Counted from the stretch's first letter, positions 7,301 to 51,139 are shown. The stretch: DNA of 51,139 nt from Candidatus Micrarchaeota archaeon (GCA_964501245.1 CAZCSE010000002.1:1-51139), one strand, 5' to 3'. Notes: generated by a model from the sequence alone, not told the origin. Numbers and translations are program-made.

Positions 7301-10300
7301 ATTGTTTATCGTATTAAGACCGTAGAAGCCACCGTTGGCTATGAATTCTGTTATGTTTACTGATGGAGTAGGGTTAGTAACAGAAGTTCCAGATACGCTT
7401 GATAACGAACTTGTAGCGCCTTGATAGGTTATGCCCAGAGGAGCCACATCTGATGAATATGCCAGATTGTATGTGCTCAGATACTTCAGGGTGGTTCCTG
7501 AGAATACATATATGTTACTGCTCTGCTGACTTGCTATGAATATAAGCTTTCCATCAGGAGATGCTGCTATCTCCGTAGGTGCGATAGGTTTACCGGAATT
7601 GTCTTCTGGGACCTTCCCATTTGCAAGCGTAAGCATCGCACCGGTTATTGGAGGTCTGCCATTTTCTGCGTTGCTTATTCTTATTATCCATGGAGATGGA
7701 GTACCTGCTATTGTAAGCGTACCGACTACATAAACATCGCCAACAGAATCTGCAGATATGTTCATAGGCGTAAAACTTATTGCAGGTCCATGGTATATGC
7801 CATTTCCAATGCATTTTTTCCTTATGCTGTCCCAGAAATCATTGTAGGAGCATTTGTTGCCGTATCCTCCTGCTTCTAGGAGAGTGCTTCCTATCCATGT
7901 TGATTCTACGAACGTTTGTGTTATTGGTATCTGATTTATAACATAGGTATTTGCGCTCTGCAGTTTTATCAGGCTTGTCCAGTAGTTCTCCCAGTCGGTA
8001 TTCCAGACATTTTGGCAGGATACAGCCCCGGCACAAAGGCTTGATGCAGGCTTTGTAGATGACCCTAGAGCAGTATCGCTTGTAGTTATAGTATCAACTA
8101 TATTTGGAATAGACCCAGGAGGCATTATGGAATTGTTGTAGTAACCCTGGTTCATTACCCTCATTACATATATACTATTTGTTGCGCCTGCAAAACTTGC
8201 AGCACTTTGCGTCCCTGTTTGTGATGATGCAGTTATGCCCTGAGCCCAGGATACTAAAGCTGAAGCTGCTGCAGAGTCACTGCCCGATGTTGATATCTGG
8301 TCACTGATGGTCCCTGATATTGTAGATGATGCTAAGATAGAGCTTGATGAAACGGACTGCAACAGAGGAAACTCTGACAGCTCTGAAGATGCTTCGGAGT
8401 TGGTCGTGTAATAACTTAGAGGTTCATTATTTTTCAACCCGTAGATTATGGCATTATAAGTAGCCAATGTTGCTCCGTTAGCGGATACTGTCTGCTTTAT
8501 TGCATCTGCAGATGCAGTAGCTCCCTGGCTTGGTGAAGAGTATTCAGGAGTACCATCAGATGCAGTGCAAGGAGATGACGGAGTTTTGATATTTACTTTC
8601 AGGCCCTGGTTAGATCCACTTCCTTGAATAGGATTTATACCTAGCGGGTTATTGTATATGAAATCAGCACCGTTGCTGTATGATTGTGCTATGGCAGCGA
8701 TAAATGCCTCATTGTTTGTTGTATCAGATACGCCAAGATCCGAGAGCGTAGATTGTATAAAGTTGTCTAAGTTGCTTCCAGAAGATGGTTGTGTTATAGT
8801 ACATGATGATGAAGTTACTGCCTTGATTGGAGGAACTGTTATCGTATTTGCAAGTACAAAGACATAATCATTAGGAATTGCAGCTATTGACAACGGGTCC
8901 TTTATAGAAACCATTGCATTTACTGTATTTGCTCCGGCAGTAGCTAACTGCTGCTGGGTTGCCCCGTAACCGTACATTATCGGCTCTCCGATGTTAGGAT
9001 ACACTATCGCTTCGCTCTGCATTGTATTTACTACCATGTTTGGCATCGCATAAGGTACAAGGATTGTTTTGCTGTTCAGCCCGCTTCCAAAATGATCGGA
9101 AAAGAAACATCCTATGGAACCGAAGAAGCCAGTATTTCCAGAATTGCAGTTCTGCTGGTACTTATTGGTATTGTAAGAAACCATGAAGAGCTGAGGCGTG
9201 CTTATGTTTATAGGTATCTCACTTGTCTTAGGGTTATTGTAATTGAAAGGGCTATATGCAGCATAAGAGAGCTGGTCAAGCGTATAAAGATTGTTTCCAA
9301 GAGATGGATTTTTTACCTGAAAGTTATATAGTATATATGGTAGGAAATTAGTATCGAATGTTGCATTTGTACCTGGCGTCTTGCCATTTGGAGGAGCTGT
9401 CTGGTATACATAGGGTATTTCAGCATTCTGTATACTCTGGAGTGTGGTGGATATAGTATATTTGTAAGTGTATATACAAGCTATAGGATATACTTCAAAT
9501 GGCGGAGTGTATCCTATCCCTGGAGCAACATAAGGAAGATATCCTGCAGGTACACTGAGACCGAAAAAGCTAGGTATCGGCAATCCTGCAAGCACGGAAG
9601 TAGTCTTTGTAACTGCAGGAGCACCTGCGAAATTCGCATACTCTGCAAACCATGACCATAAGCCATGCTGCGGTTGGGGAGACACTCCTGAAAATATATT
9701 GGAATTTGAACTGTATGCAGTAGATATTGCACCTGATTCTAGCTGGGGAGAGTAAGCGACAGCCTTAAGCACCATATATGCAGTATTCTCTGCAGACACA
9801 TTAGAATAGCCATGCGCAAGATCGAATAATGAAAAATCATAATGCTGCGTGTACACCAGATCTGATAATAAGAATACTGATTTGACGCCAGCTGAAGCAA
9901 TCTGGCAACCGTCACCTGCTATGAATGGCTCCGCACCGGTTACAAAGTAGATGTTATCTGTAGGATTTGTTGGTGGACTCTTAGGGCATGTTTCCATGTA
10001 CGCAGCGTTCTGCTGATTGTATGAAGCCACTTGGGAAGCAGGAGATACGTAAGGATTTCCAGCATAAGGTATTGGGATATGGCTGTTTGCCCCAACGCCT
10101 GCAGTGATTGGATTATACAGAGTAGCAAATGGACAAGTATAAGTTACAGTTACTGACGCGCCTGTACCAGTAGACTGTATGTGGGCATCCGGAATGCTTA
10201 TAGCTTTGCAGAACTGATAGGCTGCAGTGCCTACAAAACTTGATGCGCCTGATGACGCATATGCTGTGTGCACGATTAATGAATATGAAGAATATAGCAG

Positions 10301-10333
10301 GATTACAATGAATAACATGTTCTTCTTATCCAT
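4376..10333 (-). CDS. Giant (1985 aa) secreted, C-terminally membrane-anchored, S/T/N-rich surface protein with beta-propeller-like repeats
   Basis: Signal-like N-terminus MDKKNMLFIVILLYSSYSLIVHTAYA. C-terminal TM helix plus basic tail (IYILAGGIIVGLLLFVTRKTGKK). Many N-x-S/T sequons. VGDVYVVGT, DGKLIFIASQQSSNIYVFSG and VNGYLYVLDNWYGG resemble YVTN/NHL propeller blades. Confidence 0.7.
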   Translation of the reverse strand: MDKKNMLFIVILLYSSYSLIVHTAYASSGASSFVGTAAYQFCKAISIPDAHIQSTGTGASVTVTYTCPFATLYNPITAGVGANSHIPIPYAGNPYVSPASQVASYNQQNAAYMETCPKSPPTNPTDNIYFVTGAEPFIAGDGCQIASAGVKSVFLLSDLVYTQHYDFSLFDLAHGYSNVSAENTAYMVLKAVAYSPQLESGAISTAYSSNSNIFSGVSPQPQHGLWSWFAEYANFAGAPAVTKTTSVLAGLPIPSFFGLSVPAGYLPYVAPGIGYTPPFEVYPIACIYTYKYTISTTLQSIQNAEIPYVYQTAPPNGKTPGTNATFDTNFLPYILYNFQVKNPSLGNNLYTLDQLSYAAYSPFNYNNPKTSEIPINISTPQLFMVSYNTNKYQQNCNSGNTGFFGSIGCFFSDHFGSGLNSKTILVPYAMPNMVVNTMQSEAIVYPNIGEPIMYGYGATQQQLATAGANTVNAMVSIKDPLSIAAIPNDYVFVLANTITVPPIKAVTSSSCTITQPSSGSNLDNFIQSTLSDLGVSDTTNNEAFIAAIAQSYSNGADFIYNNPLGINPIQGSGSNQGLKVNIKTPSSPCTASDGTPEYSSPSQGATASADAIKQTVSANGATLATYNAIIYGLKNNEPLSYYTTNSEASSELSEFPLLQSVSSSSILASSTISGTISDQISTSGSDSAAASALVSWAQGITASSQTGTQSAASFAGATNSIYVMRVMNQGYYNNSIMPPGSIPNIVDTITTSDTALGSSTKPASSLCAGAVSCQNVWNTDWENYWTSLIKLQSANTYVINQIPITQTFVESTWIGSTLLEAGGYGNKCSYNDFWDSIRKKCIGNGIYHGPAISFTPMNISADSVGDVYVVGTLTIAGTPSPWIIRISNAENGRPPITGAMLTLANGKVPEDNSGKPIAPTEIAASPDGKLIFIASQQSSNIYVFSGTTLKYLSTYNLAYSSDVAPLGITYQGATSSLSSVSGTSVTNPTPSVNITEFIANGGFYGLNTINNNEISAIVNKFKSAGITQLDQASYHHPVAIQDVNGYLYVLDNWYGGLGQTCNFHINIIVKKWCWTSTDTANFDTLMLRVINSTGQDVPINPTKYNDVWFQTGTNPNGQDVYQQYTGYQSGGMYPPFGWMIAGSLSDGTSSGVVNLCGLDSWSNPCTMPSSTYTQNSNYWPLGPALSGLDCSSSILVTLTSGTYGCAFLPLSGVGFSVSFNNTVGILFPSPQNLNGGSAKIANQYAELLFTRFDLENYTQFLSPKGPPVLAQSVCYMDANGNSAISLPSGDNYPNLCIKDNNVNSFESPMLLLSSPFNYTENIGSLKTLTYSEYLYSTFSGATSITSSTSPTTNYGSTESKYESLLGNPNFVNQGETIPTSTGAVSPSQVASAEQTKLQSLLSGYAVVPYEETFQTQQQIQQQTFKILPTATVYWCFTKPATAPPFDISRTWDTLTTLFSTGVSKTYTSPTLSAPIEGGPSYAQYILNGTFYQQMLNATIVPKQILFNLFTNRIFGTVYVNDSLAYQTNKQITVNAIRTMAYGIEDNRQGVGNPGSVLGYPYYESIHLITGPVSLGGTSLLPCVGAVCMTQTSLSSVLSSALSISGNGDQNTFTYTASKTFPNAVTLFNFYQDMIYANDTFINFTGNGVGTPGTLTDPYGYHRIVVVLNDRFNNNIYLPMDVDVANATQLGVSVASSVSGSNSNQTTLTITGNLNYTPPFSTQQIPMSGGTVYLYYDTNLGFQNYNPYTDPANVQLCAFGFGANVPQNCQLAIPGWLYGGTTPNPNAEIPTYHASTSASGSCLAAPNSLLQPIQYNCNIYGTDGKTKIPNTCPVNSGGNNQWCDPVFSNGTGLCTSQLGLIGSATTNANGAFSKTITACGYGYANIKAVFYGAPSAGSSSPGISTVTPEPIKVTQSPIEYAYNPSYSGPQDTFYTTDYSWAPAQSLTNFPIGALLLSYGNIGYIYILAGGIIVGLLLFVTRKTGKK

Positions 10334-11025: not shown

Positions 11026-13812
11026 CTACTTTTTGCTGACCGTAGCGTTTGTCTGATTTTTAGCAATGCTGTTCGAGGCACTGGACTTTGTGTTATTGGT
11101 TGTTGTAGATGATATGCTGTTAACAGTAACAGTATTCGAGTTTATGCTATTAGCGGATGAGACCTTTGTAGATGTACTGTTATTGGATACAGAACTTACA
11201 GGTATGCTGCTTGAACTGTTAGTAATGGCAGGCGTGCTGTTCGTATTGTAAAGAATCTTGAATATCTTTGTATCTGGATTTGCATATATCAATTGCATAG
11301 AGACATTCCTGTTGTTCCATGCGCATGAATAGCTTGAGCATAAGAACAGGAACTTTGCCAGGTTGGTATCCGCAAGATAGCTGCTGAGTATGTATGCACC
11401 GGTTATATTTACAGGGTATCCCTGTCTAGGGACATTTGAGTACATTAATACAAGCATGTTTCCACTTGTCTGATTGAAGTATGTAGGCTTCACCACACTG
11501 AAGTTTGCATTGTCCTGATTGTATAGCACTACGGTTGAAAATGGAGATATCTCCTCCTGTCCTGTCTGCAATGTCTTGTATAATATATATGCCTTAAAGT
11601 CAGTGATAGAATTGTTCCTTGGGATTGACATCACTACATCTATTCCTTGTGGATTCGAAAGCTGGAAGAGTTCGGTTGTAGAATTGAAGTTCTCTGCAAA
11701 CTGGTCCAGTAGAACAGATCCGTATAATGAAGCATTTGTAGTGAGGTTTGATTCTATATATATGCCCTGTGTTTCTACCATCCATGTATATCTTGCAACA
11801 AAATATTCCGGTTTCCCGTTTATCTTGCTGGAGAGGAACTGGGGATCTGAACTTGAATTGAATAGCCATGCTGCAAATGGGTCTGCCTTGCTTGAATTCT
11901 GTGAACCTACACTGTCCGTAACGCTTGTCCTGTTAGCCCAGCCTTCAACTACGCTACCATCAGGCCATAGGGTAAGAACAGTAGCGTTTGCAGGTGAGTT
12001 TGCCTTCAGCCATGTCATTGCGCTCAGGAACTGAGGATTTACGTTGTCTGCCTGAGATAGATTATTAGCGTATATGCCGCCCACATACATCAGCACTATT
12101 ATGAATGATATTAGCAGTACAGACCCAACAGCCAATGTTGCATATTTGGCATGTATCTCATGCTTGTCGTGATGGTTTGTTTCGTAATAGAGATATGCAG
12201 GATATGCAAATGTAAGTACCAGGAAGAGCGCAATGGTAGGAATTAAACCGAATGTGGAGATGTAAGAATACATGTCAATCGAGTTTACAGCGGAGAGAAT
12301 TAGACCTGTTATGAGAAGTATCTCTAGAAATGCCATGATATACTTAAATTGTGTCTTTGATGAGCTTCTCACAAACGATAGAAGCCAGTATACAGTATAT
12401 GCTGCAAATATTGCAAGAGGAACAGATATCAATGAGTTGAACCTTATTGCATTTATCTGAAGGTAAGCTGTTACGGCAAAGTATGCCATCAGTATAAGCA
12501 TTCCTGGATTTATGCCGAACACTGCCTTTGCCTTTCCTTTCATATATCCTCCGGAATCAAAGACCTGCATGAACAGGTAGGGAAGCATAAGGACCATCAT
12601 TATAATCCAGATTGCTGCCCTTGAGACAGTTGTTGCTGCTGTGCCGAGATACATTATTATGGTCATTGGGGTTATGAAGAGAACATTTCCAAAGCTTGCA
12701 TAAAGGAACGCTTGCGTAGGAGGCTGGAGCTCCTGTATTGTAGCTGCAAAATTGCTCGTTATGATGAAGCCGTTCCCCACAAATATCTCGTATATGAACT
12801 GGTTATCAACAAAATATATGATTGCTAATGCTACAAGAAACACAAGCACCGTGATTATGGTCCTTGTAACTGGTGATCCGACAAATGATTTGTATTTGCT
12901 TGCATTGTCAGATAGATATTTAGCGATAAACCACCCTATAACTGCGAGCACTATCAGAGATATAGTATTTAATCCGGTAAATGTCTGGTGGACAAAGAAC
13001 CCAAACGCGATGTATATGTTTACAAGTATGTACCATAAGATAAATGAAGCTACAAGATATTTGGAATCCTCTAGAAGATCCTTCTTATCAAATATGAATG
13101 ATACGAATATCACGAGCATCAGCATTACCATATAAACCGCAGTTGCAAATGCCGCTCCGTTCCAGACATAATTGGATAAACTCAGGAAGACCGCAGAGAG
13201 TATCGCATATGCCATTTTCTTTTTGTCAAATTGTATTTTTGATATCTTATGCCTGTGCTTTTCCTCTGAAGGCTCTTTCATTATAAGAGCTGCAAATATC
13301 AACGCTATTATCAGAAAGATTGTGACAAAGCCGTCTCCCCTGTATATAAGCGCACTTGTTCTTGCGGCATCTCCCATGCTAAGCGCAACAAAGAGCATTG
13401 ATAATATGCCGAAGAGTTTGTCTTTCGTTATCATTCTTGCAAGGAGGTATGCGCCTATAACGTCGAATATTCCGAATAATACAGGAACTAGGCGCATTAC
13501 ATCGTAGTAGCTTATTCCAAAGAACTGAAGGAAGAAGTATGGGAATAGGGTCACCCAGTAAAGACCTTCAGGCTCAAGGACCACTGTAGGAGATGGATAG
13601 CCTGATATGTGAAGCACATGGGGCACTATGAAATTGTTGTTTACAGCTGCCCTTATTACAGAGAAGTGGTAGAAGCCGTCAGGCTCATAAAAGCCTGCAT
13701 CTCCCAGCATAGTCGTTCTGTATATTATCGTCAAGTATATGATTGCTATCGTTATTACAAGGAAGACGAGAAATTGCACTCTCCTTGATTCTAAAGCCTC
13801 TTTTATTCCCAT
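11026..13812 (-). CDS. STT3/AglB-like GT-C membrane glycosyltransferase (oligosaccharyltransferase family) with a degenerate catalytic motif
   Basis: 928 aa: a long multi-TM N-terminal half, a soluble C-terminal domain and an S/T/N-rich tail. First loop YEPDGFYHF resembles the acidic xDGY loop of PglB/AglB. TLWPDGSVVEGW sits where WWDYG is expected. Confidence 0.5.
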   Translation of the reverse strand: MGIKEALESRRVQFLVFLVITIAIIYLTIIYRTTMLGDAGFYEPDGFYHFSVIRAAVNNNFIVPHVLHISGYPSPTVVLEPEGLYWVTLFPYFFLQFFGISYYDVMRLVPVLFGIFDVIGAYLLARMITKDKLFGILSMLFVALSMGDAARTSALIYRGDGFVTIFLIIALIFAALIMKEPSEEKHRHKISKIQFDKKKMAYAILSAVFLSLSNYVWNGAAFATAVYMVMLMLVIFVSFIFDKKDLLEDSKYLVASFILWYILVNIYIAFGFFVHQTFTGLNTISLIVLAVIGWFIAKYLSDNASKYKSFVGSPVTRTIITVLVFLVALAIIYFVDNQFIYEIFVGNGFIITSNFAATIQELQPPTQAFLYASFGNVLFITPMTIIMYLGTAATTVSRAAIWIIMMVLMLPYLFMQVFDSGGYMKGKAKAVFGINPGMLILMAYFAVTAYLQINAIRFNSLISVPLAIFAAYTVYWLLSFVRSSSKTQFKYIMAFLEILLITGLILSAVNSIDMYSYISTFGLIPTIALFLVLTFAYPAYLYYETNHHDKHEIHAKYATLAVGSVLLISFIIVLMYVGGIYANNLSQADNVNPQFLSAMTWLKANSPANATVLTLWPDGSVVEGWANRTSVTDSVGSQNSSKADPFAAWLFNSSSDPQFLSSKINGKPEYFVARYTWMVETQGIYIESNLTTNASLYGSVLLDQFAENFNSTTELFQLSNPQGIDVVMSIPRNNSITDFKAYILYKTLQTGQEEISPFSTVVLYNQDNANFSVVKPTYFNQTSGNMLVLMYSNVPRQGYPVNITGAYILSSYLADTNLAKFLFLCSSYSCAWNNRNVSMQLIYANPDTKIFKILYNTNSTPAITNSSSSIPVSSVSNNSTSTKVSSANSINSNTVTVNSISSTTTNNTKSSASNSIAKNQTNATVSKK

Positions 13813-43462: not shown

Positions 43463-43535
43463 TGGGGAGTCCGTGATTTGAACACGGGTCGCAAGCTCCC
43501 AAAGCTTGAAGCCTACCAAGCTAGCCTAACTCCCC
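43463..43535 (-). tRNA. tRNA-Pro (anticodon UGG)
   Basis: Hand-folded: acceptor GGGGAGT/ACTCCCC+A, anticodon stem CAAGC/GCTTG with loop TTTGGGA, T arm CCGTG-TTCAAAT-CACGG. Confidence 0.8.
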
Positions 43536-43595: not shown

Positions 43596-44489
43596 TTACT
43601 TCTTCTGCTTTTTCTTCTGCCCAGGCATCCTTCCTTTTGGTTTGGGTATCTTCAGCCCTGGGAACATGCTCACAAGCGTATCTGAGCTTACGTCCAAGTC
43701 CATCTTAATGTTCTGCAGCATTTTTCCGAATAAGTATATGACTGCTATGCCCCTTACCGAATCTGAAGGAATTGCTTTGCTTACCGTCTTCTTCGTATTA
43801 TCGCTGCATAGAATATCAACAATCTTCTCTAAGTTTGCAACGCTCTTCCGCATGTTGTTTGTGGAGTCGTTTGCATAAAGGTCAAGCTCTTCGGTGTTGA
43901 TTCCTAGGATCTGCGGAAGTTTCCTGTCAGTTGCCATGCGTATCGATGTTAGATGGGCTGCCACTTCCTCAGGCTTGGTCTCTTTGTCTATCGAGAGCTT
44001 CTTTATTGATATCCAGTCCTTGTACTTTGCCATGAATGCCACTCCTGCATAAGGAGGAGTGCCTGTCTTATTCGCTTTTGATTTGCTCTCCAGTATCTTG
44101 TTGTCCGCAGGTACATACCAGTTGAGCCCTAATCTCTTTGCAGCTGCCCTTAGAAGGTATACCTTTGCAAAGGGCTTCAGCTGATCGCTGTTCTTTGCTG
44201 CTTTTGTTATGTTAGAATCGGCATCTGCAGAACCTAAAGCCTTGTATGCTGCAGCCAGTGATTTGTAATCGTTCTTTGCAAAAGAAGAGGCAAACTTCTT
44301 TGCATATGCATCCAATGTCTTTGTGTCTATTCCAAGAACTTCGAATGCCTTGTCGCTGACCAGGCTCCTTACCGATGCAAGCTCATGTGCTATTTCTGTT
44401 GGCTTTGTAGAGTCGCTTACTTCAAGGTTCCTGGATTCTACCCAGCCATTATAGTTTGCAAAGAATTCTATAGAATCAGTGCCGGCCAT
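43596..44489 (-). CDS. Hypothetical 297-aa protein built from two copies of an unknown domain of about 135 aa, plus a basic tail
   Basis: Internal duplication: FFANYNGWVESRNLEVSDSTKPTEIAHELASVRS...VLGIDTKTLDAYA versus FMAKYKDWISIKKLSIDKETKPEEVAAHLTSIRM...ILGINTEELDLYA. C-terminus PKPKGRMPGQKKKQKK. Confidence 0.55.
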   Translation of the reverse strand: MAGTDSIEFFANYNGWVESRNLEVSDSTKPTEIAHELASVRSLVSDKAFEVLGIDTKTLDAYAKKFASSFAKNDYKSLAAAYKALGSADADSNITKAAKNSDQLKPFAKVYLLRAAAKRLGLNWYVPADNKILESKSKANKTGTPPYAGVAFMAKYKDWISIKKLSIDKETKPEEVAAHLTSIRMATDRKLPQILGINTEELDLYANDSTNNMRKSVANLEKIVDILCSDNTKKTVSKAIPSDSVRGIAVIYLFGKMLQNIKMDLDVSSDTLVSMFPGLKIPKPKGRMPGQKKKQKK

Positions 44490-44493
44490 GCTG

Positions 44494-44718
44494 TTACGCT
44501 GTCCCAGGTATTACATAATATCCAGAAGCTTTCTCCCTTGCAACACGCTTCACCACGCCCTTTCCCGCTAGCGATACCAGTGCGTTGTTTACCATCGACT
44601 TTGGCCTGTTGCATTTCTTTGCTATATCGTCAGCCGTCTTCTTCTTTTCCTCGCTCGTCGCTCCTATCTCCTTCATGGATTGAACGACAAGGCTCTCTAT
44701 AGGGTTTAAATCTACCAT
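44494..44718 (-). CDS. Small winged-helix (wHTH) DNA-binding protein
   Basis: 74 aa. TADDIAKKCNRPKSMVNNALVSLAGKGVVKRV shows a typical HTH plus wing. Its stop lies 4 nt before the 297-aa gene. Confidence 0.5.
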   Translation of the reverse strand: MVDLNPIESLVVQSMKEIGATSEEKKKTADDIAKKCNRPKSMVNNALVSLAGKGVVKRVAREKASGYYVIPGTA

Positions 44719-44738
44719 TATCTCAACTCAGAAAAGCA

Positions 44739-44891
44739 TCACTTCTTTACTCTCTTTTCCTTCCTCTTAGGGCGCAGGTACTTGTAGCCGCATCTCTTGC
44801 ATTTCTCTACGCCAGCCCTGTTTCTACCTTTGCACTTCCTGCATATCCAGGTCTTGGACAGCTGCGCGTCTGCTATTGGAAACTTTCCCAT
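44739..44891 (-). CDS. rpl40e: 50S ribosomal protein L40e
   Basis: MGKFPIADAQLSKTWICRKCKGRNRAGVEKCKRCGYKYLRPKRKEKR has the Cys4 ribbon and length typical of archaeal L40e. The internal ATG at 44891 is preferred to the track start at 44939. Confidence 0.8.
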   Translation of the reverse strand: MGKFPIADAQLSKTWICRKCKGRNRAGVEKCKRCGYKYLRPKRKEKRVKK

Positions 44892-45057
44892 ACTAAGCAC
44901 TTGATTTTTGGATCTAAGAATAGAACCTAATACTACCACTACTATGAAGGAGTAATATTAAAAATCTTGTGTTATCTGCACTGTAACGGTATTCTTCAAA
45001 ACATCAGCCCAATAAATTGTCGGCATACGGCGAATAGGACCGGATATTATAGTTATA

Positions 45058-45070
45058 TTTATAAATCAGG
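45058..45070 (+). promoter_or_regulatory. TATA-box-containing string TTTATAAATCAGG upstream of the tandem paralog cassette; identical to 39533..39545
   Basis: Exact 13-mer repeat of the promoter string of the 39565 locus. Similarity continues beyond it (cATtTCA versus ATATTCA). Confidence 0.35.
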
Positions 45071-45138
45071 ATATTCACAGATTTTACTTGTTTATACAAG
45101 CTAGATTTTAGAGTATCTGGAGTTAAAACTGCAGGTAG

Positions 45139-45456
45139 TTGACAATGATAACAAAAATAATGGAGTATAGGGAGGTACGGATAGGAAGTAACAGGGTAGT
45201 AATAGCCCAGTCGATAAACGCGCCTGATATTAAGGAAGTCAATAAGGTATTCGACAGTGCAGGTCTAAGGATGCTCAGAAGAGAAGAGGCTGAGAAGGTC
45301 ATTTCGCTTTACCCGAAGCTCAAGGAGGAGTTGAGAGGGACACATTTTGATACCTCAGATGGAAAGGGCTTTTTTGTTGATAAGGATTGCTCAGCTATAT
45401 TTAAGGCAATTGTCAGGACAGATCTGCCCTATTCTAAAGATAATGCCATTGGTTAG
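45139..45456 (+). CDS. Hypothetical protein, paralog family member 4 (short form, 105 aa)
   Basis: IKEVNKVFDSAGLRMLRREEAEKVISLYPKLKEELRG aligns with the family core. AGGT-type SD-like gcaggtag lies just upstream. The start is the TTG at 45139 or the ATG at 45145. Confidence 0.5.
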   Translation: MTMITKIMEYREVRIGSNRVVIAQSINAPDIKEVNKVFDSAGLRMLRREEAEKVISLYPKLKEELRGTHFDTSDGKGFFVDKDCSAIFKAIVRTDLPYSKDNAIG

Positions 45457-45488
45457 ATGTCCAATTTATGTAGTCAAGGCAAGGTATA

Positions 45489-45989
45489 ATGCATATGGTA
45501 AATGAAAGTCGTATCGCCGTTGCAGAAGAGACATCGTACATCAGAATTGCAGACAGATATACGTCGCTTGCAAGAATGGATTTCTCACCGCATATACCTG
45601 ACAATTCAAGGATTGCAACTTTTGATGAGTTACTCCGTGAACATAAAAAAGGAACCGGCTTCAGGGATGAATTGAGAGATTATTGCAGTAGCAAAAACGC
45701 TCATGACGGATGGGTACTCGTCGCTAAAGGAGCAGGATACTGCCCTGAAAATTTATACTGGCATTACCATATAGATAATGGAGTTGCAGAGCACGTGAGG
45801 CGTCCAATGCTGCGCAAGATACCTGGAGAGAGAAGATTGGCAGTATTTATGAAAAGCAATGGTTACCTATGTGTTAAATTTGGAGCAGATTATTTTCCTC
45901 CGGGTAATGAGCTATACATTGCGCGTGCAGTTTATGTTATGTTTGATAGAGATGATGAGAAATATGCATTTAAACGTGAAAAGAGATAG
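45489..45989 (+). CDS. Hypothetical protein, paralog family member 5
   Basis: NSRIATFDELLREHKKGTGFRDELRD...DGWVLVA, IPGERRLAVFMKSNG and ARAVYVMFD blocks. Confidence 0.55.
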   Translation: MHMVNESRIAVAEETSYIRIADRYTSLARMDFSPHIPDNSRIATFDELLREHKKGTGFRDELRDYCSSKNAHDGWVLVAKGAGYCPENLYWHYHIDNGVAEHVRRPMLRKIPGERRLAVFMKSNGYLCVKFGADYFPPGNELYIARAVYVMFDRDDEKYAFKREKR

Positions 45990-45995
45990 GCAGGC

Positions 45996-46505
45996 TTGTT
46001 TTGTGGTGTTATGAGTAGCAGTATAAAGAAACGTGAAAATGAGTGTCCGCAGGTATTCAGATCTGCTGAGAAAGTACTGCCAGTAGATATAGATGAGTTG
46101 ATTGGGTCATTGCGAGAAAAAGGGCGCATACTTGCTTCTGCTGAGGAGGTGGAAGTAAATTATGCGAGTAACGCGGTTTTCAGAAGCATGATGTATAGGC
46201 AGGGTTGGGCATTGACAGCACAGATAGGAATTTACAATATGGAATACAGAAGGCTTGGCAGTGATGGATCAGTTAATTATAGGGTTAGCAGGGATGAATT
46301 TTCTGCTTTGTCTCCTCAAGAAAGGTCTGTGCGGCTGCCTGGAAATGGAATAGTGCTTGCAAGCAACGCCTACTTTGAAGGCAACAGCTGCCTGATACTG
46401 CGCGCAGATATAACCAGATACAGGCCCGTCAGTTATCTGTACACTATAGACAAAGAAAAAAAGACAAGGGCTACTACGCTCGTAGAGGTACTGCGCAGGC
46501 TTTGA
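45996..46505 (+). CDS. Hypothetical protein, paralog family member 6 (the start may be the ATG at 46011)
   Basis: IDELIGSLREKGRILASAEEVEVNYASNAVFRSMMYRQGWALTA, SPQERSVRLPGNG and VSYLYTID blocks. Confidence 0.55.
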   Translation: MFCGVMSSSIKKRENECPQVFRSAEKVLPVDIDELIGSLREKGRILASAEEVEVNYASNAVFRSMMYRQGWALTAQIGIYNMEYRRLGSDGSVNYRVSRDEFSALSPQERSVRLPGNGIVLASNAYFEGNSCLILRADITRYRPVSYLYTIDKEKKTRATTLVEVLRRL

Positions 46506-46585
46506 ATTTAGATTATGGCAGGTGGGATAGGCCATAAGGATATATTTAAATACGAGAAATTAGTATATTTATATGAAGTGATACT

Positions 46586-48205
46586 ATGGCAACTGTAAAG
46601 AAAAGATCAAGTAAAATGACAGGAGGACAGGAAGTAAATGCGACAGACCTGCTTAACAATTTCACACATGCTTCACGTTCTATAAATGGCATAGATAGCG
46701 AAAATCTCTCCGAGAAGAGCAGCGGCTCGGCAAAGCACAATTATTATGCAGAGATGGTAACTGAACTGCAGACGCGCGTCAGGGCTGCAAGCAGGAAAAG
46801 CGAACTTAGCGTAAAGGAGAGAATAGAACTTGAAAAAAAGGGTGAGGAAGAGGCAAAGAAACTCTCAGGAATGCCTGCAGATAAGCTTAGGGCGTCATTC
46901 TCTGGATTTGTCGAAAAGATAAAGGGACCGTCTTATGAAGATGCAGTGCGCAGGGTGGCAAAGCTCACAGGAGACCTTCAAAAGCTTGCAAGCACCGATT
47001 CAAAGGCAGCATATCATGCACTTGAAACTGCGATACATGATTTCAGCGCTGCTTCAAAAAACAAAGCGTCAGGCAAGAAAAAAGATGGTAAAAAGGATGA
47101 TGAGCCACAGATAACTAAGGATCTGAAGCTGATAAGAAAGGTTGCGATTATAGAGGAACTGGGCAGAGATCTTGCAAGGTATGCTGATAGTGTAAATCCT
47201 GTTAGAAAGAGACCTGTACTTAGGGAAGACTCTCCTTTCAGGAGCGTACTTTATCCTGAGGAGAAGACTAGTAAAATGTCAACTGCAGATAAAAGTACTG
47301 CAAAAACTGCTGAGACAGCACCTGAGATGAAGATAAGGGAAGGGGATGAAAAGAGTGAAGCTGCAGCTGAGAATCAGGGCAGCAGGGAAAATGGCGGAGC
47401 TGAGAGAAATACGGGTTCACAGCACAAGGCTGGAGAGGAACAGCCACTGATATTGGATCTTAGAAAGCTTGATACTCCTGAGAAGATAATAAAGCAGCGC
47501 AGTATAATAGAGGCAAATATAACCAAGAGAATGGACCAGATTAACCACGTCTTAAATATTATCGGTAATAAGGAAAAGAATCAGATTACAGAAGCAGATC
47601 TTGAAAAGGTATCTGATACCAACATAAAGCTTTTTGTAGAGATAACAGCGTATAAAGACCTGCTTATTGAGATGAAAGATAATCTGAGTAAAACGTTCCC
47701 TAATGATAAAGAAGCACGCGAATCGCATGAGAAGTCAATAGACGCGCTTGTGAAGAAGATAGGGGATGCCGGAGCGTATTCCAACAAAAGGATAGCTAAG
47801 ATCGCAGAGGAGAAAGGACTCAGTGTTAGCAGAGTGCCAATGTTTCTGCATGAGATAAGGGACATGCAGAGAGACCTTTATAGTATCAGGGATTCATCAG
47901 GGAAGCCTATTTATGAGAGGCTTGGGGCGAATACGCTCTTCTTTGATGAAGGAAACAATAGCCAGAGGGTAGTAAAACAGATTGGGGAGGACTACGAAGA
48001 GATAATGAAGCGGCTTAACGCTAAGAACAAGGCCGTCCTGAAAGGATATGAAGATGATTATGCCGATATGTCCGAACTTGTTATAACACAGCTAGCAGCA
48101 ATAGGGGTTCAGCTAAGGTGGGAAGGGAGAGGCACAGTTGGAAGGGAAGGATTGTGGCAGGATCTCAGCGCACCTTTTGTATTTTCCGGTGAGAGTGCGC
48201 AGTAG
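46586..48205 (+). CDS. Hypothetical 539-aa highly charged, predicted helical/coiled-coil protein
   Basis: K/E/A-rich heptad-like stretches and a central low-complexity segment (KTAETAPEMKIREGDEKSEAAAENQGSRENGGAERNTGSQHKAGEE). No catalytic motif recognised. Confidence 0.5.
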   Translation: MATVKKRSSKMTGGQEVNATDLLNNFTHASRSINGIDSENLSEKSSGSAKHNYYAEMVTELQTRVRAASRKSELSVKERIELEKKGEEEAKKLSGMPADKLRASFSGFVEKIKGPSYEDAVRRVAKLTGDLQKLASTDSKAAYHALETAIHDFSAASKNKASGKKKDGKKDDEPQITKDLKLIRKVAIIEELGRDLARYADSVNPVRKRPVLREDSPFRSVLYPEEKTSKMSTADKSTAKTAETAPEMKIREGDEKSEAAAENQGSRENGGAERNTGSQHKAGEEQPLILDLRKLDTPEKIIKQRSIIEANITKRMDQINHVLNIIGNKEKNQITEADLEKVSDTNIKLFVEITAYKDLLIEMKDNLSKTFPNDKEARESHEKSIDALVKKIGDAGAYSNKRIAKIAEEKGLSVSRVPMFLHEIRDMQRDLYSIRDSSGKPIYERLGANTLFFDEGNNSQRVVKQIGEDYEEIMKRLNAKNKAVLKGYEDDYADMSELVITQLAAIGVQLRWEGRGTVGREGLWQDLSAPFVFSGESAQ

Positions 48206-48230
48206 CACAATATGTTCATAGCATAGTGGG

Positions 48231-49415
48231 TTGATGGTAGGATATAAATCCAGAATTCCTGTGGAGAAGAATGAGAATGTAGAAAAGGTCAAGGCAGCTG
48301 AGATAAAAAGCGCACGGGATTTTATATCCCATGTGGGAAGAACCTCAGATAGACTTAAACATAGGAAGCTTTTGGACCTTGCAGGAGCAGCTGCAGCTGT
48401 GTATATTGCAGCAGCACCTATCGCATTTGCTGCAGGACAGCCATTACACGAATCAGGATACAGCAAGCAGGATATTGCAGCTCTGAACAAACTTATGAGG
48501 AGCGAGGCAGCATATTCTGCCAAAGGCGAGAGCATTACAAACGGTTTGCCTACAAATGAGATTTTAGGAGTAGTAAACATAAACAAGCTAAAAGGGATTT
48601 CCTCTCAAATGCTTGATGGAGGAAGAACTGCAAACGGAGCTTCTATTCAGCTAAATACATATGTGCATCTGGTAAGCAGTGGAGGTGGGAGCAGCTGGAT
48701 CTGGGTGCAGAATGGAGTTCAGATATTCATACATGGAGACAAAGTATCGGAAAAACCATCATACACCTATGGGAGCATATCACAAATATTTAAGGACAAC
48801 CTCAAGCTTGATGTAAAGGCGGAAGAAGGAAAGAAACTTACGCAGAAAGACTTTGACAAACTGAGATTAAATGGGATGAGTGGCAGAGGAATCCTTACAG
48901 ATTCTGAAGGTACAATACCAACCTATGTTTATTCCGATTATAAGGTATACAAGGAAGGCAGCAGATGGGGCATACGTGGAGGAGATACGCATACGTCAAA
49001 CAGGATCAGGTTTGCTGTTGACATAAGAGTTACAGAAAAACAGGATATCGCATATATCAATTTCAGCATAGTACCTGTGAAGGGAGATGTACTTGACTGG
49101 AATAAAGAGGTAAAGTTTGATAAGGTATCGTACAGGGTAAAAGGATTAAAGAGTGCGAAGATTGAGTTCGGTAAGCTAAAGGATACAGGACTTGTTATAG
49201 CAGGCGTGGGAGGTGGGGCTTACTTCCATGCTGAAGAGATAACAGGGGCTTTCAGCATGTATGAGAAAGAATCAGGCAGATTTGTGCCTCTTGCAGTAAG
49301 TGGCAATAGCGATTGGAATACAGGAGAGCATGATGTTGGGGTGCGTTCCGTAAGGTTAAACTCTTACACTGTAGAGTTGGTAAGGGCTAAAAAAGCAAAT
49401 AATGCCGGAAATTAG
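48231..49415 (+). CDS. Membrane-anchored protein with a thermopsin-like (peptidase A5 family-like) ectodomain
   Basis: One TM helix (LLDLAGAAAAVYIAAAPIAFAAG) after a basic cytoplasmic tail. ASIQLNTYVHLVSSGGGSSWIWVQNGVQIF, GLVIAGVGGGAYF and NSDWNTGEHDVGV resemble the LQ(F/L)N...W(L/V)Q(D/N)V, GGGG and DT.E strings of thermopsin as I remember them. Confidence 0.4.
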   Translation: MMVGYKSRIPVEKNENVEKVKAAEIKSARDFISHVGRTSDRLKHRKLLDLAGAAAAVYIAAAPIAFAAGQPLHESGYSKQDIAALNKLMRSEAAYSAKGESITNGLPTNEILGVVNINKLKGISSQMLDGGRTANGASIQLNTYVHLVSSGGGSSWIWVQNGVQIFIHGDKVSEKPSYTYGSISQIFKDNLKLDVKAEEGKKLTQKDFDKLRLNGMSGRGILTDSEGTIPTYVYSDYKVYKEGSRWGIRGGDTHTSNRIRFAVDIRVTEKQDIAYINFSIVPVKGDVLDWNKEVKFDKVSYRVKGLKSAKIEFGKLKDTGLVIAGVGGGAYFHAEEITGAFSMYEKESGRFVPLAVSGNSDWNTGEHDVGVRSVRLNSYTVELVRAKKANNAGN

Positions 49416-49528
49416 AGAGTTGAGCTGTAGAGTGCCTTACGCTTTATAAAAGGTTTTATAACTTTTAGTATACAATCTAATGGTATAAATACCAACGGGA
49501 AAATTAACTCTTTTCTTAGGTGATATAG

Positions 49529-51139
49529 ATGCCTGATGGCATAGAATTGACTGTGGCAGATGCGCTTGTGACCGATTCAGGGAGGAGCGTAGCCAGGATA
49601 GATTCAAAATCAAGGAAGATGCTTGATGTCCTTTCTGGGGACATAATTGAGATAAAGGGCAAGAAAAAGTCTACGGCTGCGATTACGTGGCAGTCCCATC
49701 CGAGCGACGAAGGGCTTGGCTTCATAAGAATAGACGGTTACATAAGGCAGAACCTCGGCGTTGGAATAGGAGACAAGATATTTGTTTCGAAGGCAGCGGT
49801 AAAGGATGCAGAGAAGGTTATTCTTGCGCCCCCTGTAGGCCAGAAGATGCCTTTATCTCCTGATTTCCCTGAATTTGCGAAGAAAAGGCTTGATGGAAGG
49901 CCTCTTGTGAAAGGGGATTCCATACCGATACCAATGTTCGGGATAGTCTTCAACTTCATAGTTGTGCAGGTAGTGCCACATGGAGTTGTGAAGATAACTA
50001 GGGACACCAACCTTGTTGTGAAAGAAGAGCCTGTATCAGAGTCAATAGTCAAGGTAGGTAATGTCCATTACGAGGATATAGGAGGTCTTGAGGATGCAAA
50101 GCAGAAGATAAGGGAGCTTGTGGAACTGCCGATAAGATATCCTGAGCTCTTCGAGAGGCTTGGAATAGAACCTCCTAAAGGAGTTCTCCTTTACGGCTCA
50201 CCAGGTACGGGAAAGACGCTTCTTGCAAAGGCTGTAGCAAACGAGAGCGACGCGAACTTCATATCCATATCAGGACCTGAACTCGTATCGAAATTCGTGG
50301 GAGAGAGCGAGGAGAAGCTCAGGGAGATATTCAAAAACGCAAATGAGAAAGCGCCTTCTATAATATTCATGGATGAGATAGATGCGATAGCTCCAAGAAG
50401 GGAGGAGTCTACAAATGAGGTCGAGCGAAGGATGGTCTCCCAGATGCTCACACTCATGGATGGTATGGGGCAGCGCGGACAGGTGATAGTTCTAGCAGCT
50501 ACAAACAGGCCTGATGCCATAGATCCTGCATTGAGAAGGCCGGGAAGATTTGACAGGGAGATAGAAATAGGAGTTCCTGGAAGAAATGCAAGAAAGGAGA
50601 TACTGCAGATACATACAAGGAATATGCCGATGAAAGATGTTGACATAGATGAACTTGCAAACAAGACGCACGGTTATACCGGAGCAGACCTTAATGCACT
50701 TGTAAGGGAGGCTGCAATGGCAACCCTAAGGACCATATTGCCTAAGATCGCAGACAAGCAATCAATTCCGAATGAGATTCTTCTGGATCTCAAGGTGTCA
50801 CGGGAGGATTTCCTTGAGGCAATGAAGAGCATACAGCCAAGCGCATTGAGAGAGGTATTTGTAGAAAGACCAAATGTGCATTGGAATGATGTAGGCGCAC
50901 TTGATAAGGTCAAGGATGAATTGAGGGACAGCATAGAGCTGCCTCTGAAGAATCCGAAGGCTTTCGAAGATATGGGAATAAGGCCTGTAAAGGGATTACT
51001 GCTCGTAGGGCCGCCAGGCACAGGAAAGACATTACTGGCAAAGGCAGTAGCGACTGAGAGAGAGTCAAACTTCATATCGATAAAAGGTCCTGAGATACTT
51101 TCCAAGTATGTTGGGGAGAGCGAGAAGACCCTGAGAGAG
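49529..51139 (+). CDS. cdc48: CDC48/VCP-type AAA+ ATPase (3' end outside the window; not listed in the ORF track because it runs off the edge)
   Basis: The ATG at 49529 opens a frame to the window end (537 codons). N-domain ([24 protein letters not shown]), D1 Walker A GSPGTGKT and Walker B IIFMDEID, start of D2 with GPPGTGKT. Confidence 0.9.

What the first reader, a model, noticed from the sequence alone, without database searches (positions are those of the whole stretch)
45139..49415. Five-gene same-strand cassette of unknowns: three tandem paralogs, a 539-aa charged helical protein and a membrane-anchored thermopsin-like protein
Five co-directional ORFs with gaps of only 32, 6, 80 and 25 nt lie between rpl40e and cdc48. 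Genes 1-3 (105, 166 and 169 aa) are diverged copies of one small-protein family. Gene 4 is a long K/E-rich protein, apparently coiled-coil, with a low-complexity linker. Gene 5 has a cytoplasmic basic tail, one TM helix and a beta-rich ectodomain with thermopsin-like strings. I see no P-loop, nuclease, HTH or transporter motif in any of them. The layout is diversified small soluble paralogs, a long helical scaffold and an extracellular protease-like module. It does not match any described system I know. In an apparently reduced genome, a dedicated envelope, proteolysis or host-contact function is plausible.
Basis: partly seen in the sequence, partly recalled or inferred. Interest (0 to 1): 0.75.

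Follow-up and report, generated by a model that had tools for sequence, protein, structure and literature searches.

The report
Variable thermopsin-linked gene cluster in Micrarchaeota
A small group of Micrarchaeota (tiny archaea whose cultivated members live attached to other archaea) carries, at one fixed chromosomal spot, a fast-diversifying cluster that encodes a probably cell-surface relative of the acid protease thermopsin plus four protein families with no detectable relatives outside this clade; it is a real but narrowly distributed locus whose function is still unknown.

Summary
The five same-strand ORFs exist as described, between rpl40e and cdc48.

**Gene 5.** It is a divergent, full-length thermopsin (MEROPS A5) domain behind one hydrophobic segment, predicted N-in/C-out. 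Pfam gives 39.5 bits against a cut-off of 25. The profile-profile match is 97.7% probability over 237 columns.

**Gene 4.** It is all-helical: two helical regions joined by a disordered linker. It has no family or fold match, and no long coiled coil is evident.

**Genes 1-3.** Only genes 2 and 3 are credible distant paralogs. Gene 1 is unrelated.

**Distribution.** The cluster sits at the same position in all six distinct relatives, all Micrarchaeota. It was found in 4 of 185,579 species genomes and on no viral contig.

**Variation.** Gene content varies: an extra small paralog, an extra protein carrying gene 4's core domain, and a gene 4 duplication.

**Transcription.** Conserved TATA-like blocks suggest two units, genes 1-3 and genes 4-5, not one operon.

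**Divergence.** Genes 2, 3 and 4 have dN and dS 3-8 times those of ordinary neighbours, in a mosaic pattern that implies allele exchange.

**Best reading, low confidence.** This is a clade-specific, recombining envelope-associated accessory locus built around a surface thermopsin-like protein and a cytoplasmic helical partner. Whether it is one functional system is unproven.

The parts
45054..45096 (+). Promoter-like block upstream of gene 1. TATA-like TTTATAAAT lies at 45058-45066, followed by a conserved block of about 30 nt (CAGGA..TTCACAG.TTTTACTT). The block lies about 50-90 nt upstream of the gene 1 ATG.
   Evidence: The block is near-invariant in six loci while the sequence on both sides diverges. 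Reading it as an archaeal TATA box is an inference from the TTTAWATA consensus.
45145..45456 (+). Gene 1 (family A, 103 aa from the ATG; the ORF opens at TTG 45139). It is small and has no hydrophobic segment, and it is the best conserved of the small proteins. It has no detectable relative outside this locus.
   Evidence: ORF. Orthologs are 71-95% identical in L016, L011, L007 and L008. No Pfam, NCBIfam, PHROG or PADLOC hit. Unrelated to families B, C and D.
45489..45989 (+). Gene 2 (family C, 164-166 aa). A small soluble protein that is very divergent between genomes and is absent from L008 and L010.
   Evidence: It is 43-48% identical to its orthologs, with dS 1.4-2.4. It is a distant paralog of the B+D families.
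46011..46505 (+). Gene 3 (family D, 164 aa from the ATG; the ORF opens at TTG 45996). A small soluble protein present in all six distinct loci.
   Evidence: Families B and D are paralogs (hhalign probability 92%, E 7e-7). The AF2 model is unusable (pLDDT 52). No PDB or Pfam hit.
46540..46559 (+). Promoter-like block in the gene 3-gene 4 spacer (ATATATTTAAATACGAGAAA), about 27-46 nt upstream of the gene 4 ATG.
   Evidence: The core A.ATTTAAATA.GAGAA is invariant in six loci, including distant L010, whose surrounding sequence does not align.
46586..48205 (+). Gene 4 (family E, 539 aa). It has an N-terminal helical region (about residues 16-203), a disordered variable linker (about 204-290) and a conserved helical core (about 291-535, ending in SELVITQLAAIGVQL). 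It has no signal peptide or TM segment.
   Evidence: Alignment A2. AF2 model with pLDDT 63, all helices. No fold match in PDB or BFVD with E below 0.1. No PDB sequence hit. The core domain recurs in the E' proteins of relatives.
48234..49415 (+). Gene 5 (family F, 393 aa from the ATG). Numbering from TTG 48231: a conserved basic N-terminal tail (residues 1-49), an Ala-rich hydrophobic segment (50-68, nt 48378-48434) followed by invariant A-G-Q, and a thermopsin (A5) domain (99-373, nt 48525-49349).
   Evidence: Pfam PF05317, 39.5 bits against a cut-off of 25. hhalign against eight A5 members gives probability 97.7% and E 1.5e-12 over 237 columns. Hydropathy and flanking charge. Invariant residues.
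49442..49453 (+). TATA-like element (CTTTATAAAAGG) upstream of cdc48 (start 49529). It marks the downstream boundary of the cluster.
   Evidence: The gene 5-cdc48 spacer is largely conserved across loci, and the TTTATAAA core is present in all six. Cdc48 start.
43596..44891 (-). Upstream neighbours on the opposite strand. DUF2666 protein (43596-44489) is itself highly divergent with a discordant history. The 74-aa TrmB-like winged-helix protein (44494-44718) and L40e (44739-44891) are both highly conserved.
   Evidence: Pfam and NCBIfam. The same order is found in all loci. DUF2666 is 76% identical to L016 but 87% to L010, the reverse of the cdc48 order.

Best explanation
This is a clade-restricted accessory locus of a narrow Micrarchaeota lineage, fixed between rpl40e and cdc48. 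It is probably made of two transcription units.

Unit 2 (genes 4-5) is the invariant heart of the locus. Gene 5 is inserted N-in/C-out, or exported and cut after the conserved AFA|GQ site. It displays a divergent but complete thermopsin-family (A5) domain outside the cell. Its conserved basic N-terminal tail stays in the cytoplasm. Gene 4, a cytoplasmic two-region helical protein with a disordered linker, is made from the same message. I infer that it acts on or with that tail, for example in targeting, holding or organising the surface protein.

Unit 1 (genes 1-3) encodes small cytoplasmic accessory proteins: one conserved family, plus a family expanded into paralog types B, C and D.

The locus diversifies by exchange of old, divergent alleles and by gain and loss of paralogs. 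Such a pattern is often seen at loci exposed to a partner organism or to the environment, which here would be the host-facing envelope of an episymbiont.

Shown: gene order, family membership of gene 5, topology by charge, helical nature of gene 4, conserved promoter-like blocks, divergence pattern. Inferred: co-transcription, a gene 4-gene 5 interaction, proteolytic activity, and any role in host contact.
For: - The locus sits in the same chromosomal slot in all six distinct relatives. Genes 4 and 5 are always adjacent, 11-54 nt apart.
- Gene 5 is a thermopsin domain. It keeps the family's best conserved residues: Q140/N142 = Q109/N111; Q160/N161 = Q128/D-or-N129; D297 = D228; D318 = D257; T364/E366 = T303/E305.
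- The N-flank charge is +1 to +5 and the C-flank charge is -2 to +1 in all ten family members.
- The cytoplasmic tail carries conserved motifs: an MVGHKS-type N-terminus and H-x-G-R-x-SD(R/H)(L/V/I).
- Genes 1-4 have no hydrophobic segment.
- Invariant TATA-like blocks lie upstream of gene 1 and of gene 4.
- Genes 2, 3 and 4 show dN 0.29-0.40 and dS 1.3-2.4, against dN 0.04-0.09 and dS 0.24-0.54 for ordinary neighbours in the same genome pair. The omega values are similar at about 0.17-0.23. Which gene is most divergent changes between genome pairs.
- There are no relatives on viral contigs, no flanking repeats and no defence-system match.
- Thermopsin-like surface proteins have already been proposed as host-surface-degrading factors in another DPANN ectosymbiont (bioRxiv 10.1101/2023.10.27.564410).
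Against: - There is no direct evidence that the five products work together.
- The two promoter-like blocks and the discordant gene histories fit independent genes equally well.
- The divergences of genes 4 and 5 do not track each other. Window vs L008 gives gene 4 73% and gene 5 60%; window vs L011 gives 60% and 87%. That argues against tight co-evolution.
- Gene 5 lacks the DNVWN motif (D144/N148), and D302 is N, S or T.
- Thermopsin's catalytic residues are unknown (PMC3842238), so activity cannot be judged.
- Gene 5 has only 0-3 N-glycosylation sequons, against the eleven potential sites reported for thermopsin (PMC3842238).
- The gene 4 and gene 3 models are of moderate and poor confidence respectively.
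Confidence: 0.4

Rival explanations
1. There is no system. The slot between rpl40e and cdc48 is simply a recombination-prone place where this lineage keeps unrelated accessory genes. Gene 5 would be a stand-alone secreted or anchored acid protease for peptide scavenging, as thermopsins are assumed to be in acidophiles. Genes 1-4 would be unrelated lineage-specific proteins.
For: Separate promoter-like blocks. Gene content varies between genomes. Divergence histories differ gene by gene. A neighbouring tRNA and, in one relative, an integrase next to DUF2666 show that the neighbourhood accepts insertions. The same MITK start on four non-homologous genes suggests gene replacement behind a fixed leader.
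Against: Genes 4 and 5 are adjacent in every locus with a conserved short spacer containing AGTGGGTT. Families A, D, E and F persist down to 33-57% protein identity. All the families are confined to this one locus and clade.
Confidence: 0.33
2. Gene 5 is a non-catalytic thermopsin-fold surface protein, an adhesin or recognition module. The locus would set partner (host) specificity rather than carry out proteolysis.
For: The DNVWN motif is lost and D302 is variable. Divergence between strains reaches 57-60% identity. Protease families commonly include non-peptidase homologues (PMC3842238).
Against: The residues best conserved across family A5 (Q109, N111, Q128, D257, E305) are invariant here. 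Against L019, gene 5's dN and dS lie within the range of ordinary neighbours, which is not what a specificity determinant under diversifying selection would show.
Confidence: 0.15
3. It is a conflict system, such as toxin-immunity or antiviral defence. The small, copy-number-variable paralogs would be immunity-like proteins and gene 4 an effector.
For: Diversity is high, paralog number varies, gene 4 is duplicated in L010, and alleles are exchanged.
Against: There is no significant PADLOC match (best E about 0.01) and no nuclease, ATPase or toxin domain. The conserved part of gene 4 is its C-terminal core, not a variable toxin tip. dN/dS is well below 1. No mobile-element hallmarks were found.
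Confidence: 0.08
4. It is a remnant of an integrated virus or plasmid.
For: The proteins are ORFans. Foldseek against viral models lists weak similarity to tape-measure-like helical proteins, all with E above 0.1. An integrase is found nearby in one relative.
Against: No relatives were found in 2.9 million viral contigs. There is no significant PHROG hit and no flanking repeat. The position is the same in genomes with cdc48 dS up to 1.7. GC content is ordinary.
Confidence: 0.03

Closest known systems
Thermopsin, MEROPS family A5 / Pfam PF05317 (Sulfolobus acidocaldarius thermopsin and its archaeal homologues)
   Same: The gene 5 ectodomain aligns over essentially the whole peptidase unit and passes the Pfam threshold. 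It keeps the QLN, W-x-Q-(D/N), (Y/F)-D-K, D-x-x-L-V-x-x-G-x-G-G-G and T-(A/G)-E motifs. It is predicted to face outwards.
   Different: It is very divergent: the word-indexed homologue search returned no classical thermopsin at E 1e-3 or better. The DNVWN motif is replaced and D302 is not conserved. It has a long conserved cytoplasmic-type N-terminal region of 49-79 aa instead of a short signal peptide plus propeptide. It is almost free of N-glycosylation sequons. It occurs in Micrarchaeota, whereas the 2013 survey found the family only in acidophilic archaea, usually hyperthermophiles (PMC3842238).
Thermopsin-like surface proteins of the DPANN ectosymbiont Nanobdella aerobiophila (MJ1_0076, MJ1_0361)
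   Same: Both are DPANN proteins annotated as thermopsin-like and membrane-anchored. The authors speculate that theirs degrade the host S-layer (bioRxiv 10.1101/2023.10.27.564410).
   Different: The Nanobdella proteins have C-terminal TM helices, 4-7 Ig-like folds and 14-49 glycosylation sites. Gene 5 has an N-terminal anchor, no extra domains detected by Pfam, and 0-3 sequons. Homology between the two was not tested here.
Glutamic peptidases (MEROPS G1, Gln/Glu catalytic dyad)
   Same: Rawlings noted that the best conserved polar residues of family A5 include a Gln and a Glu, as in a G1-type dyad (PMC3842238). Both are invariant in gene 5's family (Q140 or Q160, and E366).
   Different: There is no sequence match to any solved structure. 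The fold of gene 5 was not modelled here. Thermopsin is pepstatin-sensitive, unlike G1 enzymes. This is a lead, not a finding.
Strain-variable genomic islands encoding envelope or surface proteins in prokaryotes (general kind)
   Same: A fixed chromosomal slot between conserved housekeeping genes, variable gene content, divergent alleles with raised dS, and mosaic histories.
   Different: Four of the five families have no known relatives, and most products appear cytoplasmic. No glycosyltransferases or typical surface-polysaccharide genes lie in the island.

Membership tests
Thermopsin / peptidase A5 (PF05317): gene 5 | Match to the family HMM above the curated threshold | tested here: met
   39.5 bits against a gathering score of 25, E 5.8e-10, in two stretches. 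All nine homologues carry PF05317 in the precomputed table.
Thermopsin / peptidase A5 (PF05317): gene 5 | Alignment over the whole peptidase unit, not just one motif | tested here: met
   hhalign of the gene 5 family against eight A5 sequences transcribed from Rawlings 2013 Fig. S1 gives probability 97.7%, E 1.5e-12 and 237 columns. Gene 5 residues 99-373 align to unit positions 27-271 of 289.
Thermopsin / peptidase A5 (PF05317): gene 5 | Best conserved family residues: Gln109, Asn111, Gln128, Asp/Asn129, Asp228, Asp257, Glu305 | tested here: met
   Q140, N142, Q160, D297, D318 and E366 are invariant in the ten-member alignment, and position 161 is N or D.
Thermopsin / peptidase A5 (PF05317): gene 5 | DNVWN motif (Asp144, Asn148) and Asp302 of the D-T-G/E/A motif | tested here: not met
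   DNVWN corresponds to S-x-I-F-K, and D302 corresponds to N, S or T at position 363. Both are variable within family A5 itself: 48 and 61 of 75 sequences keep them.
Thermopsin / peptidase A5 (PF05317): gene 5 | Acid endopeptidase activity, pepstatin-sensitive | not testable with these tools
   The catalytic residues of the family are unknown (PMC3842238).
Thermopsin / peptidase A5 (PF05317): gene 5 | Extracellular location | tested here: inconclusive
   The charge distribution predicts N-in/C-out in all ten members. The near absence of sequons and the unusually long N-region leave open whether it is an anchor or a cleaved signal. No experimental data are available.
   Family C against B+D gives hhalign score 29.3, E 5e-4 and 99 colinear columns, against a maximum of 17.6 in 40 shuffled controls. 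Families B and D match at probability 92%. The relation is distant, at about 23% identity.
   BLASTP E 0.51 and 0.097. Profile-profile E 0.18-0.5.
Single five-gene operon | No internal promoter; one transcript | tested here: inconclusive
   The gaps are short, but a TATA-like block invariant in six loci sits in the gene 3-gene 4 spacer. No transcript data are available.
Coiled-coil scaffold (gene 4) | Long uninterrupted helices or a coiled-coil fold match | tested here: inconclusive
   The AF2 model (pLDDT 63) has 18 helices of 4-36 residues. The best PDB and BFVD matches are generic helical bundles with E above 0.1. No heptad analysis was run.
Known antiviral defence systems (PADLOC-DB v2) | Match of any component to a defence-system model | tested here: not met
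   There are no significant hits. The best are E about 0.01 on single proteins.
Integrated virus or mobile element | Viral relatives, an integrase inside the cluster, flanking direct repeats | tested here: not met
   There are no relatives on IMG/VR contigs and no PHROG hit below E 0.05 for genes 1-5. Only short chance-level repeats were found.

The most novel reading that the evidence does not exclude
The locus is a dedicated host-interface module of Micrarchaeota. A surface thermopsin-like enzyme would be held and regulated from inside the cell by the helical gene 4 protein through the conserved cytoplasmic tail. The small diversifying B/C/D paralogs and family A would act as strain-specific modulators. 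Together they would determine which host cells (plausibly Thermoplasmatales, the hosts of cultivated Micrarchaeota) the symbiont can attach to or feed from, and allele exchange would track host diversity.
Probability: 0.12. Interest if true: 0.75.

Novelty: new variant of a known kind. Interest (0 to 1): 0.42.

Why it matters
Cultivated DPANN archaea depend on contact with a host cell, yet almost nothing is known about the proteins that mediate this contact. This locus offers a concrete, compact candidate for study.
- It has an outward-facing protease-family domain always paired with a cytoplasmic partner gene.
- It lies in a region that diversifies far faster than its surroundings by exchange of old alleles.
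- It extends the thermopsin family into Micrarchaeota in an unusual N-terminally anchored, sequon-poor form.
- It defines four protein families found nowhere else among 1.8 billion representative sequences (shown exhaustively for the gene 2/3 family only).

If the products do act together, they would be a handle on host specificity in an uncultivated lineage. If they do not, the locus is still a clear example of a recombination hot spot in a reduced genome.

Tried and rejected
1. Pfam, NCBIfam, PHROGs and PADLOC on all five proteins, on the extra proteins of relatives, and on every member of the small-protein alignment. Nothing was found for genes 1-4.
2. Profile searches of PDB sequences for gene 4, gene 5 and the B/C/D family. 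Nothing fell below E 0.1.
3. A concatenated query (genes 1, 2, 3 plus B and E') to save a homologue search. It returned nothing, not even the window's own proteins, so the search was wasted.
4. Structure prediction with an alignment of orthologs taken from the loci.
pLDDT was 52, so it was unusable and was not sent to fold search.
6. AF2 of gene 4. Confidence was moderate, and Foldseek against PDB and BFVD gave only generic helical matches.
7. P0025, a 1302-aa apparent relative of the small proteins. It was rejected as an artefact of about 21 near-identical tandem units that also hit unrelated Pfam families.
8. Two JGI metagenome scans found nothing. This probably reflects what the collection holds rather than true absence.
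9. Internal duplication of gene 4, and any link between the cassette families, the E' C-terminal halves and DUF2666. All were negative.
10. Co-variation of gene 4 with gene 5, or with gene 5's tail length. None was seen.
11. My first reading, 'hypervariable relative to Cdc48', was tempered. Cdc48 is exceptionally constrained. Against ordinary neighbours, only genes 2, 3, 4 and DUF2666 stand out, while genes 1 and 5 lie near the normal range in that pair.
12. Literature searches for DUF2666 and for the sample and assembly accessions found nothing, so the habitat is unverified. The isolate labels DBS and MAS resemble acid-mine-drainage site codes, but that is recollection only.

Full report
**Observation.** The window holds five + strand ORFs at 45139-45456, 45489-45989, 45996-46505, 46586-48205 and 48231-49415, with gaps of 32, 6, 80 and 25 nt as reported. 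Upstream on the - strand lie a two-repeat DUF2666 protein, a 74-aa TrmB-like winged-helix protein and L40e. Downstream, cdc48 starts at 49529. Conserved N-termini in relatives favour ATG starts at 45145, 46011 and 48234. GC content is unremarkable. The rest of the window is ordinary chromosome, with AlaRS, an M50 peptidase, an STT3-like protein, a topoisomerase, eRF1, SerRS, AspRS and POR.

**Source and distribution.** The 539-aa protein has only 13 clusters of relatives and the 394-aa protein only 9 in the word-indexed collection of 5.8 billion proteins. A pattern scan of one genome from each of 185,579 species found gene 4 relatives in four genomes, all labelled Candidatus Micrarchaeota. An exhaustive HMMER search of 1.84 billion representatives with a profile of genes 2 and 3 found four real clusters. 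It also found one artefact, a 1302-aa tandem-repeat translation. No relatives occur on IMG/VR viral contigs. Two JGI metagenome scans found nothing.

**Synteny.** In every related contig long enough to judge, the cluster occupies the same slot: DUF2666, TrmB and L40e on the - strand, then the cluster, then cdc48, S6e and eIF2-gamma. Content varies between genomes:
- The window and L016 carry families A, C, D, E and F.
- L011, L013 and L019 carry A, B, C, D, E and F.
- L007 carries A, B, C, D, E', E and F.
- L008 carries A, D, E', E and F.
- L010 carries a 106-aa protein in gene 1's slot, a remote A-like 135-aa protein, B, D, a 225-aa protein, two full-length gene 4 paralogs (551 and 503 aa) and F.

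E' (471-489 aa) carries gene 4's conserved core at its N-terminus, with E values of 1e-18 to 1e-28. Families D, E and F are present in all six distinct loci. Family A is present in five, plus a remote relative in L010 (hhalign E 2e-4).

**Paralogy of genes 1-3.** Pairwise BLASTP gives E 0.004 for gene 2 against gene 3, and non-significant values for gene 1 against either. With ortholog profiles, families B and D are clear paralogs (probability 92%, E 7e-7). Family C (gene 2) against a B+D profile scores 29.3, with E 5e-4 over 99 colinear columns. Forty column-shuffled controls reached at most 17.6. Family A (gene 1) shows nothing against B, C or D. So two of the three window genes belong to one diverged family that has a third branch in relatives, and gene 1 is a separate family.

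**Gene 5.**
- Pfam Thermopsin scores 39.5 bits against a cut-off of 25, but on partial stretches.
- I transcribed eight family A5 members from the supplementary alignment of Rawlings 2013 (PMC3842238) and compared profiles. The result was probability 97.7%, E 1.5e-12 and 237 aligned columns, with gene 5 residues 99-373 matching unit positions 27-271 of 289. The whole peptidase unit is therefore present.
- The residues Rawlings lists as best conserved have invariant counterparts: Q140/N142, Q160 with N or D at 161, D297, D318, and T364/E366.
- The DNVWN motif and Asp302 are not kept.
- The catalytic residues of the family are unknown and no structure has been solved, so activity cannot be inferred.
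- Only gene 5 has a hydrophobic segment, at residues 50-68, Ala-rich, with a mean Kyte-Doolittle hydropathy of 1.9.
- In all ten family members the N-flank is basic and the C-flank is neutral or acidic, which predicts N-in/C-out.
- The segment is followed by invariant A-G-Q with small residues at -3 and -1. Cleavage that releases the domain is therefore possible.
- The tail of 48-79 aa carries conserved motifs.
- The domain has 0-3 N-glycosylation sequons. Thermopsin itself has eleven potential sites.

**Gene 4.**
- K is 10.9% and E is 10.0%, with no Cys.
- The alignment shows a moderately conserved N-terminal region, a highly variable linker and a strongly conserved C-terminal core.
- AF2 with ten sequences gives pLDDT 63. 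The model is all helices of at most 36 residues, with disorder at about residues 204-290.
- Foldseek finds nothing below E 1 in PDB or below E 0.16 in BFVD.
- The N-terminal and C-terminal regions are not related to each other.

'Helical with a low-complexity linker' therefore holds, but 'coiled coil' is unproven.

**Transcription signals (inference).** A block TTTATAAATCAGGA..TTCACAG.TTTTACTT upstream of gene 1 (window 45054-45096) is almost invariant in six loci. A block ATATATTTAAATACGAGAAA in the gene 3-gene 4 spacer (window 46540-46559) is also conserved: its core A.ATTTAAATA.GAGAA is invariant in six loci, including L010, where the surrounding sequence does not align. A third TATA-like element precedes cdc48. 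These fit the archaeal TATA consensus, which I take from general knowledge. They suggest two units, genes 1-3 and genes 4-5. Genes 4 and 5 are 11-54 nt apart in every locus, and in five of the six the spacer contains AGTGGGTT.

**Divergence.**
- Cdc48 is 96-99.8% identical to the relatives, with dN/dS of 0.004-0.016. It is, however, an exceptionally constrained protein.
- Ordinary neighbours (window vs L019) are 85-93% identical, with dN 0.04-0.09 and dS 0.24-0.54.
- In the same genome pair, gene 1 (82% identical, dS 0.65) and gene 5 (87.5%, dS 0.43) are near that range.
- Gene 2 (48%, dS 2.4), gene 3 (52%, dS 1.7), gene 4 (60%, dS 1.27) and DUF2666 (76%, dS 1.35) have both dN and dS raised several-fold. 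Their omega values of 0.13-0.23 lie within the range of the ordinary neighbours (0.07-0.26).
- The pattern is mosaic. Against L008, gene 4 is 73% identical but gene 5 is only 60%. Window gene 3 is 76% identical to L011 but 52% to L019, although L011 is otherwise of the same gene-content type as L013 and L019 and shares 90-97% protein identity with L013. DUF2666 is closer to L010 (87%) than to L016 (76%), the opposite of the order for cdc48.

I read this as old allele lineages exchanged by recombination under purifying selection within each lineage. No formal recombination test was run.

**Other checks.** No defence-system models match. No flanking repeats were found. Rfam finds only a tRNA at 43463-43535 near the locus. 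No literature exists on DUF2666 or on the accession numbers. A preprint on Nanobdella aerobiophila already speculates that DPANN thermopsin-like surface proteins attack the host S-layer.

**Verdict.** It is better described as a variable two-unit accessory locus than as a fixed five-gene cassette. Gene 5 is a divergent member of a known family. Genes 1-4 remain without a known relative or fold. The best-supported working model is a surface thermopsin-like protein paired with a cytoplasmic helical partner, plus small accessory proteins, at a host- or environment-facing interface. That model rests on adjacency, topology and the mode of diversification, not on any direct test, and I give it 0.4. 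The main rival, at 0.33, is that the genes are merely co-located cargo in a recombination-prone slot.

Noticed in passing
window 45145; L007:8360; L010:2324; L010:4312: Four cassette protein families with no detectable similarity to one another all start with ATGATAAC(A/C)AAA (M-I-T-K). The only other occurrence in the 51-kb window is internal to the STT3-like ORF. In L010 a different 106-aa protein occupies gene 1's slot behind a similar leader. This suggests either gene replacement behind a fixed start region or a shared N-terminal signal.
   Followed up: partly
window 43596-44489 (- strand): The two-repeat DUF2666 protein is itself highly divergent (73-87% identical, dS 1.2-1.5 in most pairs). 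Its history disagrees with cdc48: it is closest to L010, the most distant genome. The TrmB-like gene and L40e between it and the cassette are 93-100% identical. No literature on DUF2666 was found.
   Followed up: partly
window 43463-43535 (- strand); L011:4132-6328; L008:994-4949: A tRNA gene sits just outside DUF2666. On that side of DUF2666, L011 carries an integrase-containing three-gene insert and L008 carries other unannotated genes. The neighbourhood therefore looks like an insertion hot spot.
   Followed up: no
window 4376-10333 (- strand), next to 11026-13812 (- strand): A 1984-aa ORF with no Pfam match lies close to an STT3/AglB-like oligosaccharyltransferase. It could be a giant surface protein, but this was not examined.
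   Followed up: no
L019:8129-8263 and the 293-nt gap L019:8072-8364: Some relatives without an E' gene have a longer spacer between family D and gene 4, with a 44-aa called ORF. It may be a remnant of a lost E' gene.
   Followed up: no
window 45067-45096: The conserved block of about 30 nt immediately downstream of the gene 1 TATA-like box is as invariant as the box itself. It could be an operator, for instance for the adjacent, divergently transcribed TrmB-like regulator, or a leader element.
   Followed up: no
P0025 (not in the window): A 1302-aa database protein made of about 21 near-identical 60-aa units scored E 1.7e-29 against the small-protein profile, and it also hits several unrelated Pfam families. 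It shows how additive repeat scores can mimic homology.
   Followed up: yes
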